Shown here piece after piece: positions 29,777 through 38,350 of a DNA stretch of 64,000 bases. Origin of the DNA: a virus. Its lineage: Duplodnaviria > Caudoviricetes. Location: the IMG/VR virus record IMGVR_UViG_3300032050_000002. One strand, written 5' to 3'. Below the pieces are notes generated by a model. It made no database searches and was not told where the DNA came from. It saw nothing but the letters and a program-made list of their open reading frames with translations. Within the stretch, counting starts at the first letter, position 1. Each line of letters begins with the position of its first letter. The position numbers were made by a program, and so were the translations under genes.

Positions 29777-29974
29777 CATAAATAATTGACATATTGAAAA
29801 ACTCAATTATATTTATGATTGTTGACTTCGTGGGTTTTAAGTGGAAGTCACCCAATAAAAGATAGATACAGAAATGGGACTATCAACAAATTACCCTTTG
29901 ACACCTACCTAAACGGTAGGTTTTTTTATTTAAAAAAATTTGGTAAATTCAAAAAAAGTTCGTATCTTTGTATT

Positions 29975-31039
29975 ATGTTAGAGACTCTAAATAGATACTT
30001 TGAAGACGGACTTCTGTATAAACAGACTCACCCTACTCTTCCTTTAACTATATGGAATTACACCGAGAAAGTTCAATACGAGAACTTATGGGATGAAATA
30101 ACCATACAGACCAGAGGTTTGGTAACTGATGATAAGGGAAATATAGTTGCTAGACCTTTTAAAAAGTTTTTCAATTTAGAGGAAAAAAAACATACCGCAA
30201 CCCCTTACTTTGAAGTTTTCGATAAAATGGATGGTTCATTGGGGATATTGTTTAATTATGAGGGAGAATGGATAATGGCAACCAGAGGTTCATTCACCTC
30301 AGACCAAGCGGTTAAAGGATTTGAGTTACTTCAAAAATACGACTATAAAAGATTGGTTAAAGGTTTTACCTACCTATTTGAGATAATATACCCTGAGAAC
30401 AGAATAGTTGTTAATTATGGTTATGAGGATTTAATATTGTTATCTGTAATAGATAATAAAGATGGTTATGAATTAAAGATATTTGATGATTCTATCCATA
30501 TAGAAGGTATAAGATTAAGAAACCTATATAACAATTTAGGGTTTAAATTGGTTAAAAAATACGATGGTATAAAAGACTATAACACCTTAAAAAATATGGT
30601 TAAAGACAATGAAGAAGGTTTTGTGGTTAGGTTTTCAAATGGGGAAAGGGTCAAAATAAAAGGTGAAGAATATATAAGACTTCACAAAATAATGACCAAT
30701 GTATCAACCACCGGTATATGGGAAATATTAAGTACCGGTGGAAACTTTGAGGAAATACTTAAAGATGTTCCTGATGAGTTCTACAATAAAATAAAGGACT
30801 ACGAAAAAGAGTTGAGGTATCAATACTTTTCAATATCAGAATACTGCGGTAAATTACATGACGGATTTAGATATGGTAAATACGGTGATAAAGAAGAACC
30901 CACCAAAAAGGAATACGCTGAATTTGTTATGAAAAACGTAAAACCCGAATTCAGACCTATAATGTTTTTTATGTGGGATAAAAAGAATTATGACCAGATA
31001 ATATGGAAACTCATAAGACCCGAATTTAAAAAACTATAA
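29975..31039 (+). CDS. T4 Rnl1-like RNA ligase
   Basis: RGLVTD, RPFKKFFN, DKMDGSLG (KxDG), TYLFEII, EEGFVV, VKIK; start reassigned to the ATG after the -7 element. Confidence 0.9.
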   Translation: MLETLNRYFEDGLLYKQTHPTLPLTIWNYTEKVQYENLWDEITIQTRGLVTDDKGNIVARPFKKFFNLEEKKHTATPYFEVFDKMDGSLGILFNYEGEWIMATRGSFTSDQAVKGFELLQKYDYKRLVKGFTYLFEIIYPENRIVVNYGYEDLILLSVIDNKDGYELKIFDDSIHIEGIRLRNLYNNLGFKLVKKYDGIKDYNTLKNMVKDNEEGFVVRFSNGERVKIKGEEYIRLHKIMTNVSTTGIWEILSTGGNFEEILKDVPDEFYNKIKDYEKELRYQYFSISEYCGKLHDGFRYGKYGDKEEPTKKEYAEFVMKNVKPEFRPIMFFMWDKKNYDQIIWKLIRPEFKKL

Positions 31040-33992: not shown

Positions 33993-34387
33993 TTGTTAAT
34001 TAAGATTTTTTTATTACCTTTGTAAAACATTTGAGGAAAGGTTAATATTTATAGTTTCTCGAATGAAAAAAAAAGTTTGAGAAAAATTTGGTAAATTAAA
34101 AAATTCTTCTTATCTTTGTAAAACAAATCGGGAATGTCCGATTAGTTCTTTGAAAAAAAAGTTTTAGAAAAATTTGGTAAATCCAAAAATAATTCTTACC
34201 TTTGTAAAAGAAAATCGGAGTAAAAAACTGATAGATTCTTTGAAAAAGAAGTTTAAGAAAAGTTTGACAGAACAGAAAATTTTTCTTAACTTTGTAAAGA
34301 GTTTGAAAGTGGGAATGAGGTCATAAAGATTCCTTACTTAGTAAGGTTATAAAGGTTCCTCACCACAATCAACTCGGTTCTTTGAAA
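33993..34387 (+). promoter_or_regulatory. Four tandem Bacteroidota sigma-A promoters with three hairpin + boxA-like elements
   Basis: -7 TAnnTTTG at 34015, 34111, 34197, 34287; -33 TTTG at 34087, 34173, 34263 (20-nt spacers); (G/A)TTCTTTGAAA at 34145, 34235, 34377. Confidence 0.85.
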
Positions 34388-34394
34388 TATTGAA

Positions 34395-35247
34395 TTATCC
34401 ATTCAGTCCTCGATTATGAGACCTTCGGGTTGATTATGAGGGGATACTGATAAATGATAATCGGCCGTATATGGTCGTTAAATAAACTACGAAAGTAGGA
34501 TAAAGTGGGGTCACCTGTGTTAGTGATTCTGCGGCTCGGGAAACTGAGCTCGAGTATACAAGTGGGATATCATCCGACCTTTAGTACTGAGGGCAACGCT
34601 TTAGGGAAAGTGGTTTGGTGACCGAGCAATGTGGATTGTTAGGTTGAGTTCGGAAGAACAATAAGAATAACTCATAGGAATCCTGTAAAAGGTGTGGTTA
34701 TCCGACCATATTATTGCGGTTTCCAATTTAAAAGTGGACTTAAAACCGAAAGGTAAGATGGAGAACGAGTGGTGTCGCTACCGTCCTTATTAACGACCCG
34801 CCAAGGTTGTGATATGAAGTAAACTTAAAGAATGGAGATGGGGACATTTCACGGAGTAGTTTGGCATTCAGTTGTTCAAAAGATGACTGAACCTAAGGCA
34901 GACCACTACTTCGATTAATCCACGACACGTACTTAAATAAACTAAAAATTTGTTCAAAGGAAAAGTGTCTGTCAGGTATCGATGAAAGGTGACTACATAG
35001 TAATGAGTCGTTCATTGCACACGAAGACCCCAAGTCTGAATGTAATCTTACCAAAAACCTCTAGTTCCGCAAGAACGAGTTGGGGAGGCATCCTCGAAGA
35101 GAGTTGAGTAATAAGAGAGTAATTGATACCTCAAGGAGTGGTTTACCTAAATAACCGTCACTGAGGAATACTTTCCAAAAAAAAGTGGAAATGTGAGGAA
35201 CTAATAATCTCACTAAAGGTTCTCAAGTAATGGTGTATTCTCAGCCA
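34395..35247 (+). ncRNA. Large (~850 nt) ornate structured RNA, GOLLD-like
   Basis: No credible ORF, raised GC, many UUCG/GNRA-capped hairpins (34421-30, 34487-98, 34514-29, 34745-54), long-range AGTGGT(34768)/ACCACT(34902), size, tRNA adjacency and a 3' end (GTATTCTCAG) resembling my recollection of GOLLD. Boundaries approximate. Confidence 0.7.
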
Positions 35248-35265: not shown

Positions 35266-35340
35266 TGCGGGTCAGAGAAATGGTAACTCGTTAGGCTCAT
35301 AACCTAAAGACGGATGGTTCGATTCCATCACCCGCTACCA
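35266..35340 (+). tRNA. tRNA-Met (CAT), initiator-like, CCA encoded
   Basis: GCGGGT/ACCCGC acceptor with unpaired U1:U72, A11:U24, TTAGG-CTCATAA-CCTAA anticodon arm, GATGG-TTCGATT-CCATC T arm, ACCA end. Confidence 0.92.
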
Positions 35341-35400
35341 AGTGACTCCAATAGAAAGTGTTTGACTTTAACACTAAACGATAATGAGTTTAAACTTTTC

Positions 35401-35740
35401 ATCCAAAAACATAAGTTCGGTTGTTATATTGTGTGTTTTATAGTTTTTGTTGTTCACGATTTCATCCTGTGTAAGGAAAAAATGAATACAAAAAAACTGA
35501 TGTTGAGTCCTAAATACACGACTCACCCGTCTAAAGGAAAAAAACTGTACGAAACCGATTTTTTAGGGTGTGGTAGTTTGTGATAACCACAAGGTCTTCA
35601 GGTGATTCAAGAAAGACCGAAAACACACAAACGTAAATTGGTTTAACCAACGTCACAACTCACGTAAGTAGTTACAATATGGTTCACTCACCATAATAGT
35701 AAGGTTTAAAAGTTATCCTTGTGAAAGAAACTTATGGCTT
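35401..35740 (+). ncRNA. Unclassified ~330-nt multi-stem RNA candidate
   Basis: Long-range stems 35410-17/35729-36 and 35429-39/35620-30, possible pseudoknot 35417-22/35553-58, and at least six local hairpins. Confidence 0.65.
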
Positions 35741-35742
35741 AG

Positions 35743-35787
35743 AAGGGAGATATCGATTTAGCCAACGATGTCTCCCTTTTTTATTTT
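35743..35787 (+). terminator. Intrinsic terminator closing the ncRNA cluster
   Basis: AAGGGAGATATCG...CGATGTCTCCCTT followed by a T-run. Confidence 0.85.
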
Positions 35788-35812
35788 GTACTTTTTCATA
35801 TATTTATTTAAT

Positions 35813-36415
35813 ATGAGAAATTTCTTTTTTTATATTCTTTTTAGTTTATCACTATTAAAATCATTTTCTCAATGTAGCGGTAATTTAACTTTTACTTTAA
35901 CTCCATCCCCACCAGTCGGTGGTTATACTCCAGGAACAACAGTTAATGTCTGTGTTACTTTACAAAGTTTTACTCAAACAGGAAGTAATTGGTTTGAAGG
36001 TTTTGATATTAATTTAGGTTCAGGTTGGACTAATGTTACTCCGGTATCATCACCCGCAAATTGTGGTGGAAATAGTACTGGTGGTCAATGGTTATGGATG
36101 ACATCAGTAACATCAGACGCGACCCCATCAGTTACCGTGGGACCCGGATATTTTTTTGATAGAAATAGTGATGGAAATCCTGGAAATGATTATGGTGATA
36201 GTAATGGTTCAAATTGTACTTGGACTATGTGTTTTAGTGTTAGGGTTTCTCAAAATTGTATTCCTCAAAATTTATTAATAGAAGTGGCTGCGGCTGCTGA
36301 CGGAGTTTGGGGTAGTTACACAAGTACAGCATGTGATAATGTTAATTACGTTAATATATACACAGGAACAAGTAGCGCAACTCCTGTTGTTTTAGGTGCT
36401 ATAAGTCATAATTAA
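35813..36415 (+). CDS. Secreted beta-rich protein, C-terminus LGAISHN
   Basis: Bacteroidota-type signal peptide ending SFSQ/C; paired Cys; start reassigned to MRNFF. Confidence 0.75.
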   Translation: MRNFFFYILFSLSLLKSFSQCSGNLTFTLTPSPPVGGYTPGTTVNVCVTLQSFTQTGSNWFEGFDINLGSGWTNVTPVSSPANCGGNSTGGQWLWMTSVTSDATPSVTVGPGYFFDRNSDGNPGNDYGDSNGSNCTWTMCFSVRVSQNCIPQNLLIEVAAAADGVWGSYTSTACDNVNYVNIYTGTSSATPVVLGAISHN

Positions 36416-36426
36416 AAAATAAAAAA

Positions 36427-36996
36427 ATGAAAAAGTTACTCTTAATTCTATTCACAATGTTAACCACAATATCTTTTGCTCAGTTAACAACTAATAACCC
36501 TGATACAATTTGTCCCAATGCTACGGGCTCAATTTATCAAGTCCCATCGTTAGGTGCTGGGTTTAATTATACTTGGACTGTAGTATCTCCAGGAACAATA
36601 ACCGCAGGTGCTGGAACAAATCAAATTACGGTTAATTGGGGTTCATTACCCGCAGGATTAAATACAAACGCGGTAAGTGTAATTGCGACTAATACTGTTA
36701 CAGGATGTCAAAGTCAACCCGTTAATCTAAATGTGTTTGTATTAACATTAACACCGACAATTACTTCAATAGGACCTTTTTGTCAAGGAGCTCCTTGTGT
36801 TAATTTAGTTGGAACTCCGTCAGGTGGTTTATTTAGTGGAACAGGTGTAGTGAGTAATCAATTCTGTCCTACAACAAGTGGAGTAGGTTCTTTTACTGTT
36901 ACTTACACTGTAACTCAAAATGGTTGTAACTTTAGTACATCAACAACAGTTGTTGTTGGTCAAAACCCTGTATTAGCTCCAATACAACATAATTAA
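36427..36996 (+). CDS. Secreted PKD/Ig-like domain protein, C-terminus LAPIQHN
   Basis: Signal peptide ending SFA/Q; YTWTVVSPGTITAGAGTNQITVNW; GTPSGGLFSGTGV...FCP...VTYT. Confidence 0.8.
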   Translation: MKKLLLILFTMLTTISFAQLTTNNPDTICPNATGSIYQVPSLGAGFNYTWTVVSPGTITAGAGTNQITVNWGSLPAGLNTNAVSVIATNTVTGCQSQPVNLNVFVLTLTPTITSIGPFCQGAPCVNLVGTPSGGLFSGTGVVSNQFCPTTSGVGSFTVTYTVTQNGCNFSTSTTVVVGQNPVLAPIQHN

Positions 36997-36997
36997 A

Positions 36998-37567
36998 ATG
37001 AAAAAATTATTCTATATATTTTGTTTTTTATTTCCTTTGTTTGGTTATACACAACAAGTAGTAGAATTGTGTGATGACGGACAAACAACATTTACTTATA
37101 GTTCCCCCCAAAGATTATCAGGTGTTAATGTTTGGACTTTAAATCCTGGTACAGGTAGTAGTGATGTTTTTGTTAATGAGTTTAGATATACTTGGACTGA
37201 AATAGGCGAATATAAATTAAGATTAATTTTTATAACAAATACTGGATGTTATGATAGTACTTTTTATACAATAAAAGTAATTCCTTGTACTCAAACATTT
37301 ATGTGGTTTCCAAATGCTTTTACCCCTACTGGAGATGTTGAAAATGAAACATGGTCACCCAAAGGAATTAATTATACCGACTTACAATATTCAATTTATA
37401 ATAGATGGGGTGAATTAGTTTTTAATTCTAATTCTGAAGATAAACCTTGGGACGGTACATTAAATAATAAACCTTGTCAAACAGATGTTTATATTTTTGT
37501 TTGTTTTTGGAAGGGGATAGACAAACGTAATTACAAAAAATACGGTCATATTAGTTTAATTAGATAA
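36998..37567 (+). CDS. T9SS type-B sorting (gliding-motility-associated CHU_C) domain protein
   Basis: FPNAFTPTGD..NETW, IYNRWGELVF, WDGT, DVYIF, GHISLIR. Confidence 0.9.
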   Translation: MKKLFYIFCFLFPLFGYTQQVVELCDDGQTTFTYSSPQRLSGVNVWTLNPGTGSSDVFVNEFRYTWTEIGEYKLRLIFITNTGCYDSTFYTIKVIPCTQTFMWFPNAFTPTGDVENETWSPKGINYTDLQYSIYNRWGELVFNSNSEDKPWDGTLNNKPCQTDVYIFVCFWKGIDKRNYKKYGHISLIR

Positions 37568-37963: not shown

Positions 37964-38350
37964 TGGTGGAGATATTGGGAGTCGAACCCAAGTGCTAAAC
38001 ATCCCAAGTATTAAGGACTACATGCTTAGGATAAAGTTTTCTAACTTTCCAAAAATAGTTAATTCGTTCTTCACCATCGTAAATTAACAACCAATGAATG
38101 ACTCGATTTAGGGTTCAGTCATTTTTCCACCTCTATTTAGACTCCTGTTTCTAGGTTATATGTCCACCGACCCAATTGTGTGACTTAATCTAATTAAGCC
38201 ACAGCTACTTCTTCAGTACGAATTAATCCTACAGAAGTAAGTTTGTTGATTACGTTGCCGTATATCGATTTGAATCAGTTTTAACAAGGTTAACTCAGCC
38301 TTGACATGCCCCGAATAGTTGATTATGCTAGTCGATACCATTTTATCCCC
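37964..38350 (-). ncRNA. ssrA: tmRNA, tag (A)GNVINKLTSVGLIRTEEVAVA*
   Basis: 5' GGGGATAAAATGGTATCGAC; 3' GGGTTCGACTCCC...CTCCACCA tRNA-Ala-like domain; resume codon GGC after ATATAC; tag ORF 38259-38194. Confidence 0.95.

What the first reader, a model, noticed from the sequence alone, without database searches (positions are those of the whole stretch)
35401..35740. Unclassified ~330-nt multi-domain RNA between tRNA-Met and the terminator
Seen: closing stem CATAAGTT(35410-17)/AACTTATG(35729-36); perfect 11-bp TTGTGTGTTTT(35429-39)/AAAACACACAA(35620-30) enclosing a domain of hairpins (TTCAT/ATGAA, TGAGTC/GACTCA 35504-25, CACCC/GGGTG, GTGGT/ACCAC, GGTCTT/AAGACC); a second domain of four short hairpins (35638-50, 35657-73, 35678-95, 35701-20); and a potential pseudoknot TCGGTT(35417-22)/AACCGA(35553-58). 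It does not match RNase P, 6S, SRP, tmRNA or ribozyme cores that I can recall. Inference: a new large ncRNA class co-transcribed with, and perhaps partnering, the GOLLD-like RNA.
Basis: partly seen in the sequence, partly recalled or inferred. Interest (0 to 1): 0.8.

Follow-up and report, generated by a model that had tools for sequence, protein, structure and literature searches.

The report
Conserved structured RNA trailing phage GOLLD
The stretch after tRNA-Met is a real, conserved, pseudoknotted non-coding RNA of about 440 bases, in no RNA database, that in freshwater phages always sits directly behind the giant cage-forming GOLLD RNA and so gives a new handle on GOLLD's unknown function.

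Summary
The comparative evidence is what makes the case.

The region 35340-35782 belongs to a family of 42 distinct sequences in 11 clusters that are 48-60% identical to each other. All come from freshwater viral and metagenome contigs.

Every member lies directly 3' of a same-strand GOLLD RNA. Usually tRNA-Met lies between them. In five sequences the element is fused to GOLLD by only 8-23 nt.

Rfam has no match, there is no conserved ORF, and the downstream gene varies. Twenty freshwater RNA-seq runs from 13 studies hold the element.

It is most likely a stable RNA module co-transcribed with GOLLD and released by tRNA processing. A working partnership with GOLLD is inferred, not shown: no covarying pairing between the two was found, and the module has been gained, lost and shuffled relative to the GOLLD core.

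The parts
34000..34300 (+). Context: four tandem Bacteroidota-type promoters (TTTG-N19-TAnnTTTG; -7 boxes near 34014, 34111, 34196, 34287).
   Evidence: Read directly from the sequence. Also noted by other first readers. Promoter function not tested.
34300..35247 (+). Context: complete GOLLD RNA (variable 5' domain, then the Rfam-modelled part at 34852-35247).
   Evidence: Rfam RF02032, 317.7 bits, E 4e-90, model positions 1-416.
35266..35340 (+). tRNA-Met (CAT) between GOLLD and the element; probable processing punctuation.
   Evidence: ARAGORN and Rfam tRNA 55.8 bits. A tRNA-Met sits in the same place in 34 of 41 relatives.
35341..35349 (+). Invariant 5' motif AGUGACUCC. It follows the tRNA 3' end or, in fused variants, the GOLLD 3' end.
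   Evidence: Invariant columns in A1. In L157 it follows GOLLD after a 14-nt spacer read off the sequence; the profile-hit gap is 8 nt.
35357..35375 (+). Hairpin h1 (AGUGUU/AACACU).
   Evidence: Same-sequence versus swapped-arm test, p 0.006.
35384..35395 (+). Conserved single-stranded block AUGAGUUUAAAC. GAGU could pair with ACUC of the 5' motif; both never vary, so this is untestable.
   Evidence: Invariant columns A45, G47-T50, A53-A55 in A1.
35461..35486 (+). Hairpin I2 (UCCU/AGGA core, extended by UUCAU/AUGAA in the window).
   Evidence: Arm test p 0.008. Also recovered by the unbiased window scan, z 5.5.
35504..35525 (+). Hairpin I3 (UGAGUC/GACUCA). The GUC/GAC core is conserved and the flanking pair varies (A-U, G-C, U-A).
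   Evidence: Arm test p 0.055, plus inspection of cluster representatives.
35551..35556 (+). Pseudoknot strand GAAACC, 5' of hairpin D. It pairs with the loop of hairpin E.
   Evidence: Covarying duplexes in 9 of 11 clusters, p 0.0015. Scan hit 214 x 259-262, z 4.3.
35569..35591 (+). Hairpin D (UGUGG/CCACA) with conserved loop ..U.UNAUAA. This is the most conserved block.
   Evidence: 100% paired, mostly invariant.
35593..35618 (+). Hairpin E (GGUCUU/AAGACC). Loop bases 35601-35608 (GGUGAUUC) are the second pseudoknot strand.
   Evidence: All 8 modelled pairs change on both sides in A4. Arm test p 0.0002. Pseudoknot.
35620..35634 (+). Conserved A-rich joining strand ending in invariant CGU (AAAACACACAAACGU).
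   Evidence: Invariant or near-invariant columns. The long-range pairing is not significant (p 0.085 and 0.21).
35638..35650 (+). Hairpin e0 (UUGGU/ACCAA); variable in sequence and length.
   Evidence: Arm test p 0.001.
35657..35673 (+). Hairpin F (AACU/AGUU) with conserved loop NACGNNANN.
   Evidence: 4 of 4 pairs change on both sides, 91% paired. p 0.007.
35679..35694 (+). Hairpin G (AUGGU/ACCAU) with conserved loop UCAC(U/A). The loop could pair with GUGA of the 5' motif; both never vary.
   Evidence: 9 of 9 pairs change on both sides. p 0.0002. RNAalifold paired GUGA with UCAC.
35701..35720 (+). Hairpin H (AAGG/CCUU).
   Evidence: p 0.0002. 4 of 5 pairs change on both sides.
35736..35739 (+). 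Tail GGCU, which can pair with AGCC (35760-35763) in the terminator loop. Only the clusters that carry this tail have it.
   Evidence: p 0.015, and one compensated change GGCUA/UAGCC to GGUUA/UAACC in L015 and L239.
35745..35782 (+). Intrinsic terminator: 11-bp stem GGGAGAUAUCG/CGAUGUCUCCC, 10-nt loop, U6.
   Evidence: Sequence. Duplex -22.6 kcal/mol, covariation p 0.0002. A hairpin followed by a U-run closes all 22 full-length representatives aligned.

Best explanation
Window 35340-35782 encodes a conserved non-coding RNA of about 440 nt. It has at least nine hairpins and at least one pseudoknot, and it is the 3' module of a phage 'stable-RNA operon'.

Shown:
- It belongs to a family found only in freshwater phage and metagenome contigs.
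- Every relative with upstream sequence has a same-strand GOLLD RNA directly 5' of it.
- Many helices covary, and it is not protein-coding.
- It ends in its own intrinsic terminator.
- Near-identical sequence is present in many freshwater metatranscriptomes.

Inferred:
- Transcription starts at the four tandem Bacteroidota-type promoters upstream of GOLLD, runs through GOLLD, tRNA-Met and the element, and stops at 35777-82. In GOLLD loci without the element, a U-run follows GOLLD directly.
- RNase P and the tRNA 3'-end enzymes cut out tRNA-Met. This releases GOLLD and a separate element RNA that begins at AGUGACUCC.
- In phages without the tRNA, the element stays attached to GOLLD as a 3' domain.

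Most likely role, with low confidence: an optional accessory RNA that acts together with the GOLLD nanocage, as a docked or tethered partner, cargo or assembly modulator. Contact would be through its invariant unpaired motifs, not through covarying helices.

Sub-claim probabilities: structured ncRNA family linked to GOLLD about 0.9; co-transcription and tRNA-mediated release about 0.7; functional partnership with GOLLD about 0.35.
For: Family and linkage:
- nhmmer and pattern scans give 82 loci and 42 distinct sequences.
- All 41 relatives have GOLLD immediately upstream on the same strand. This includes loci fetched with an element-only pattern.
- Five sequences are fused to GOLLD with 8-23 nt gaps.
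- Distant members L010 and L045 have the same layout.

Structure:
- Plain MAFFT alignment A3: 75.7% of cells paired against 67.0 +/- 0.9 in shuffles; covariation score 0.293 against 0.163; 0 of 500 shuffles reach it; slid partners give 38-47%.
- Model-aligned A4: 81% paired, 26 of 31 pairs with changes on both sides.
- Alignment-light arm-swap tests support h1, I2, E, e0, F, G, H and the terminator.
- The E-loop pseudoknot has at least six different complementary sequence versions.
- An unbiased window scan recovers the same helices.

Strand: G-U 69 against A-C 34 cells, the U-tract, and the same orientation as GOLLD and the tRNA.

Not coding: 6-19 stops per + strand reading frame, and no positionally conserved ORF on either strand.

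Not in Rfam.

Expression: 20 RNA-seq runs from 13 studies hold 56-88% of the element's words. Some of these runs are only 11-50 Mb.

GOLLD loci without the element mostly have a U-run directly after GOLLD.
Against: - The window's own sequence does not fold better than shuffles.
- RNAalifold recovers only hairpin D (plus short invariant pairs) on A1 and A4. The helices were therefore defined by me from per-sequence folds and then tested.
RNA runs can contain DNA.
- No covarying pairing between the element and the GOLLD 3' domain: best z 4.3 in 20,300 window pairs, against 6.4 for true helices inside the element.
- The GOLLD core tree needs at least 5 gains or losses of the element. L068 lacks it although its core is sister to L223, and the core and element of L239 come from different clusters.
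- In the L012 lineage a homing-endonuclease gene separates GOLLD from the element.
The last three points show the module is dispensable and exchangeable. That weakens the idea of a tight physical partnership.
Confidence: 0.6

Rival explanations
1. It is an independent stable non-coding RNA that merely shares the strongly expressed GOLLD/tRNA operon, much as phage tRNA clusters carry unrelated small stable RNAs. On this view it has its own function, unrelated to GOLLD.
For: - No covarying inter-RNA pairing.
- The module is gained, lost and shuffled relative to the GOLLD core.
- It is separated from GOLLD by a homing-endonuclease gene in the L012 lineage.
- The tRNA between them would cut the two RNAs apart.
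Against: - It was never found without GOLLD directly upstream (41 of 41), even when the search pattern used the element alone.
- Five sequences are fused to GOLLD by 8-23 nt.
- No copy was found in 185,579 species genomes with that pattern.
Confidence: 0.3
2. It is a cis-regulatory leader (an attenuator or riboswitch-like element) that controls the secreted-protein genes starting near 35815.
For: It lies upstream of same-strand genes and ends in a terminator, with a possible alternative pairing between the tail and the terminator loop.
Against: - The first downstream gene belongs to at least six different families among relatives. In L260, from the window's own cluster, it is a different family from the window's first downstream gene. 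In L010 the next feature is a tmRNA on the opposite strand.
- The terminator is strong and conserved, and no conserved anti-terminator was found.
- The conserved 5' boundary is the tRNA or GOLLD end, not a promoter.
Confidence: 0.05
3. It is not a functional RNA: a decayed tRNA array, a spacer, or a small protein-coding gene.
For: The single-sequence fold is not significant. The composition is AT-rich, which readily gives chance stems.
Against: - 53 invariant columns across sequences that are otherwise 48-60% identical.
- Compensated changes in many helices.
- No tRNA-like hit.
- No conserved ORF.
- Present in many RNA-seq runs.
Confidence: 0.03

Closest known systems
GOLLD RNA (Rfam RF02032; helices P1-P27; forms 10- to 14-mer RNA-only nanocages)
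   Same: Large, ornate, pseudoknotted RNA of phages, next to tRNA genes, function unknown. The element is physically linked to GOLLD in every case, and in some phages the two are one continuous RNA. The literature describes GOLLD as often lying near tRNAs.
   Different: The Rfam GOLLD match ends at 35247 and the element has no similarity to it. The literature read here describes GOLLD as P1-P27, with a conserved 3' domain (P14-P27); none of it mentions a conserved RNA beyond that. About half of the distinct GOLLD loci fetched lack the element.
ROOL RNA (RF03087) and other large phage or prophage RNAs found beside tRNA islands
   Same: Same genomic habit (phage, near tRNAs), similar size class, many conserved loops, unknown function.
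   Different: No Rfam match to ROOL or any other family even at E up to 10. Whether the element multimerises is unknown.
Small stable RNAs of the phage T4 tRNA cluster (species 1 and 2, rnaC/rnaD). From my own knowledge, not tested here.
   Same: Stable non-coding RNAs co-transcribed with phage tRNAs and released by the tRNA-processing enzymes, with function still unknown. This is the closest analogy for how the element would be matured.
   Different: The T4 RNAs are much smaller (about 120-140 nt), are unrelated in sequence, and are not linked to GOLLD.

Membership tests
GOLLD (RF02032) | Scores above the Rfam gathering threshold against the GOLLD covariance model. | tested here: not met
   The GOLLD hit covers 34852-35247 only. 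Nothing in 35341-35790 matches, even at E up to 10. The neighbouring RNA is GOLLD; the element is not.
Any Rfam 15 family (ROOL, RNase P, 6S, SRP, tmRNA, ribozymes, riboswitches) | A covariance-model match at or near the gathering score. | tested here: not met
   Only chance-level hits in the region (SNORD33 at 18.5 bits, Yfr11 at 18.4 bits, both far below gathering).
tRNA or tRNA-like element | A cloverleaf detected by ARAGORN or Rfam RF00005. | tested here: not met
   The only tRNA is 35266-35340. None is found inside 35341-35782.
Intrinsic (Rho-independent) terminator | A GC-rich hairpin followed directly by a U-tract on the transcribed strand. | tested here: met
   11-bp stem at 35745-55 / 35766-76 followed by U6. 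The stem covaries (p 0.0002).
Cis-regulatory leader or riboswitch | Consistent association with one downstream gene family. | tested here: not met
   The first downstream gene falls into at least six families, and in L010 a tmRNA on the opposite strand comes next.
GOLLD-linked 3' element (the family defined here) | Invariant blocks AGUGACUCC, GAGUNUAAA, UGUGG..UNAUAACCAC, CGU and the UCAC loop, in this order. | tested here: met
   Invariant columns in A1. nhmmer scores 100-380 bits. Model R1 scores the window at 105.9 bits, E 2e-20.
GOLLD-linked 3' element (the family defined here) | Lies directly 3' of a same-strand GOLLD RNA, with or without tRNA-Met between. | tested here: met
   The window, and 41 of 41 relatives.
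Homo-oligomeric RNA nanocage formers (GOLLD and ROOL type) | Self-assembly into closed multimers. | not testable with these tools
   Needs cryo-EM, mass photometry or native gels.

The most novel reading that the evidence does not exclude
The element is a dedicated second subunit of the GOLLD assembly. It would dock on or inside the GOLLD nanocage, tethered in the fused variants and acting in trans after tRNA excision elsewhere. That would make it the first natural RNA cage built from two RNAs, or an RNA cage with its own RNA cargo. Its invariant loops would then mark the contact or active sites that explain what GOLLD is for.
Probability: 0.2. Interest if true: 0.9.

Novelty: new variant of a known kind. 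Interest (0 to 1): 0.66.

Why it matters
GOLLD has been known since 2009 and its cage structure was solved in 2024-25, yet its function is still unknown.

This element is a conserved, abundant, structured RNA that never occurs apart from GOLLD in the data searched here, and that some phages fuse to it. That makes it a concrete, testable lead:
- Co-fold or co-assemble the two RNAs.
- Compare the natural fused, tRNA-separated and element-less variants.
- Mutate the invariant loops.

It also adds an RNA family that is absent from Rfam. It extends the picture of phage 'stable-RNA operons' (tandem promoters, large RNA, tRNA as a cutting site, second large RNA, terminator) in phages of freshwater Bacteroidota.

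Tried and rejected
- RNAalifold on the MAFFT alignment A1 and the model alignment A4 gave almost nothing beyond hairpin D. Stems sit in shifted registers and the structure-aware MAFFT modes are not installed. I therefore tested helices with the count of structure pairs and with an arm-swap permutation test.
- A loose hairpin-D pattern in viral contigs returned mostly unrelated loci. An exact 21-mer from the window found nothing.
- The genome-contig scan with the family pattern gave 7 hits, all false: no model R1 match in any of the seven, and no GOLLD in the three scanned against Rfam. 12 of the 49 metagenome pattern hits were also not members.
- GenBank phages: only the GOLLD part matches two huge-phage records (LR745206, LR756502), and their downstream regions lack the element.
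- Pairing of AGUGACUCC with GGGGUCAC in the GOLLD 5' domain: that motif is present in only one sub-clade, so I dropped it.
- A systematic scan for covarying pairing between the element and the GOLLD 3' domain found nothing above the multiple-testing level.
- Hairpin I1 (GUG..CAC): plausible by eye but p 0.8.
There is therefore no read-level evidence.
- Weinberg 2009 and Morgado 2020 could not be opened.
- Earlier scan notes: sequence look-ups with the window element and two relatives found nothing from other genomes.

Full report
**Layout.** The + strand carries, in order:
- four tandem Bacteroidota-type promoters (TTTG-N19-TAnnTTTG, about 34000-34300, read);
- a complete GOLLD RNA (Rfam RF02032 at 34852-35247, 317.7 bits, preceded by about 500 nt of its variable 5' domain);
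- tRNA-Met(CAT) at 35266-35340;
- the flagged region;
- an 11-bp hairpin plus U6 at 35745-35782.

No whole genome is held for the window. Neighbouring genes include a T4 Rnl1-type RNA ligase, a protein with a CHU_C type IX secretion sorting domain, a tmRNA and a ClpB/ClpC-like ATPase. This fits a large phage of a Bacteroidota host.

**Observation.** The single sequence is not significantly structured, however: the + strand MFE is -73.7 kcal/mol with z -1.36, and the reverse strand scores better, z -2.64. Rfam has no match in the region at the gathering threshold or at E up to 10.

**Relatives.** A GOLLD-core pattern fetched 83 viral loci. nhmmer with the window's 35341-35800 found full-length relatives, 64-67% identical by blastn, directly downstream of GOLLD in 13 of them. 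A profile found more.

A pattern made only from the element's invariant blocks then found 42 viral and 49 metagenome stretches. In all there are 82 loci and 42 distinct sequences. The 38 full-length ones fall into 11 clusters at 70% identity, which are 48-60% identical to one another. Fifty-three columns are invariant in the 22-sequence alignment A1, among them AGTGACTC, GAGT, GTGG, ATAACCAC, CGT, CG and CAC.

The same pattern in 185,579 species genomes gave only false hits.

**Linkage to GOLLD.** In all 41 distinct relatives, a same-strand GOLLD lies immediately upstream.
- In 34, tRNA-Met(CAT) lies between, with 71-86 nt from the end of GOLLD to the element.
- In L157, L207, L202, L128 and L267 there is no tRNA and the gap is 8-23 nt. 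There the element is a direct 3' extension of GOLLD (one search shows the L157 junction).
- L053 has an 83-nt gap with no tRNA called.
- In L012, a GIY-YIG/NUMOD3 homing-endonuclease gene has been inserted between GOLLD and a 5'-truncated tRNA.

L010 and L045 are distant members with the same order: GOLLD, tRNA-Met, element-like RNA, and in L010 a tmRNA on the opposite strand.

Forty-five other distinct GOLLD loci lack the element. Most of these have a U-run straight after GOLLD's last hairpin, and a few have only tRNA-Met plus a terminator.

**Structure, 3' half (35558-35727).** I defined hairpins D, E, F, G and H from per-sequence folds and wrote them onto the plain MAFFT alignment A3 of 33 sequences.
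- 75.7% of cells pair, against 67.0 +/- 0.9 in shuffles.
- 118 cells change on both sides, against 60.5.
- The covariation score is 0.293 against 0.163.
- No shuffle out of 500 reaches any of these values.
- With partners slid by 1-3 columns, pairing falls to 38-47%.

A covariance model built from A3 (R1) realigned 39 distinct sequences. This gave 81% paired, 26 of 31 pairs with changes on both sides, and a covariation score of 0.342 against 0.141. G-U cells outnumber A-C cells 69 to 34, which favours the + strand.

**Structure, alignment-light test.** For 11 cluster representatives I compared the duplex energy of each 5' arm with its own 3' arm against arms taken from other clusters. Results:

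| Helix | p |
|---|---|
| h1 | 0.006 |
| I2 | 0.008 |
| E | 0.0002 |
| e0 | 0.001 |
| F | 0.007 |
| G | 0.0002 |
| H | 0.0002 |
| Terminator | 0.0002 |
| Tail / terminator-loop pairing | 0.015 |
| I3 | 0.055 |
| TTCAT/ATGAA | 0.33 |
| CACCC/GGGTG | 0.18 |

An unbiased scan of all window pairs inside the element recovered the terminator, G, I2, E and H as its top hits (z 4.5-6.4). It also pointed to a new contact.

**New pseudoknot.** The 5' part of the E loop pairs with the strand just 5' of hairpin D. The complementary sequences differ between clusters:
- AGUCUU/AAGACU
- AGGUC/GACCU
- AGGUGU/ACACCU (becoming G-U in L239)
- AACGUAUU/GAUACGUU
- AAGGU/ACCUU
- CUACU/AGUAG
- GGUGUU/AACACC

The permutation p is 0.0015. 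In the window it is weak: GGU-GA-UUC at 35601-08 with GAAACC at 35551-56.

**Not coding, not a leader.** Each + strand reading frame has 6-19 stops, and the longest open frames on either strand differ in strand and position between relatives. The first downstream gene belongs to at least six families, and it differs even within the window's own cluster.

**Expression.** Twenty RNA-seq runs from 13 freshwater or lake studies hold 56-88% of the element's sampled 31-mers. Some of these runs total only 11-50 Mb. Six RNA runs also hold 44-66% of the whole stretch from GOLLD to the element. This argues for an abundant RNA.

**Relation to GOLLD.** A scan for covarying complementarity between the element and the GOLLD 3' domain gave a best z of 4.3 among 20,300 window pairs. 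That is the level expected by chance, and true helices inside the element score 6.4.

On a maximum-likelihood tree of 75 GOLLD cores, element-bearing cores are clustered (8 changes against 25 in shuffles). Well-supported branches still force at least 5 gains or losses. L068, which lacks the element, is sister to L223, which has it. L239 combines a core from one cluster with an element from another.

The module is therefore strictly GOLLD-associated but also optional and exchangeable. Any contact with GOLLD would have to run through invariant motifs, which covariation cannot test.

**Literature.** The papers I could read describe GOLLD as P1-P27 with a conserved 3' domain, often near tRNA islands, sometimes with a tRNA in its linker, and with no known function. 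None mentions a conserved RNA downstream of it. Weinberg 2009 itself could not be opened.

**Verdict.** This is a real, conserved, structured non-coding RNA family that is absent from Rfam and forms the 3' module of GOLLD loci in a subset of freshwater phages.

Noticed in passing
L012:1488-2058 (also in L038, L049, L052, L129, L229, L253): A 178-aa GIY-YIG (SegE-like) plus NUMOD3 homing-endonuclease gene is inserted between GOLLD and the element. It overlaps a 5'-truncated tRNA-Met (Rfam tRNA 27.9 bits).
   Followed up: partly
window 34000-34300: Four tandem Bacteroidota-type promoters (TTTG-N19-TAnnTTTG) about 90 nt apart, each followed by a repeated unit, drive the operon of GOLLD, tRNA and the element. 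This resembles an rRNA-operon leader.
   Followed up: no
window 37964-38350 (-) and L010:2479-2849 (-): A phage tmRNA lies shortly downstream on the opposite strand, both in the window and in the distant family member L010. This synteny of stable-RNA genes is conserved.
   Followed up: no
window 29819-31039 (+): A T4 Rnl1-type RNA ligase (PF09511, E 5e-17) lies 3 kb upstream of the GOLLD operon. It is possibly tRNA-repair related.
   Followed up: no
L068 and L006 (region downstream of GOLLD): GOLLD, then tRNA-Met, then a terminator, with no element. The L068 GOLLD core is sister to that of the element-bearing L223, so this looks like a clean deletion or insertion of the module.
   Followed up: partly
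L239 compared with L015 and L248: The GOLLD core of L239 groups with the L248/L265 cluster, while its element groups with L015. GOLLD and the element appear to recombine as separate modules.
   Followed up: partly
window 35815-37567 and relatives (family f0): A variable number (0-3) of paralogous secreted proteins of about 190 aa follows the element in different phages. One has a PKD-like domain and one a CHU_C type IX secretion domain.
   Followed up: no
window 35266-35272 / 35330-35336: The tRNA-Met has a U1-U72 mismatch at the top of the acceptor stem and an encoded CCA. Whether it is an initiator, an elongator or a tRNA-Ile2 was not resolved.
   Followed up: no
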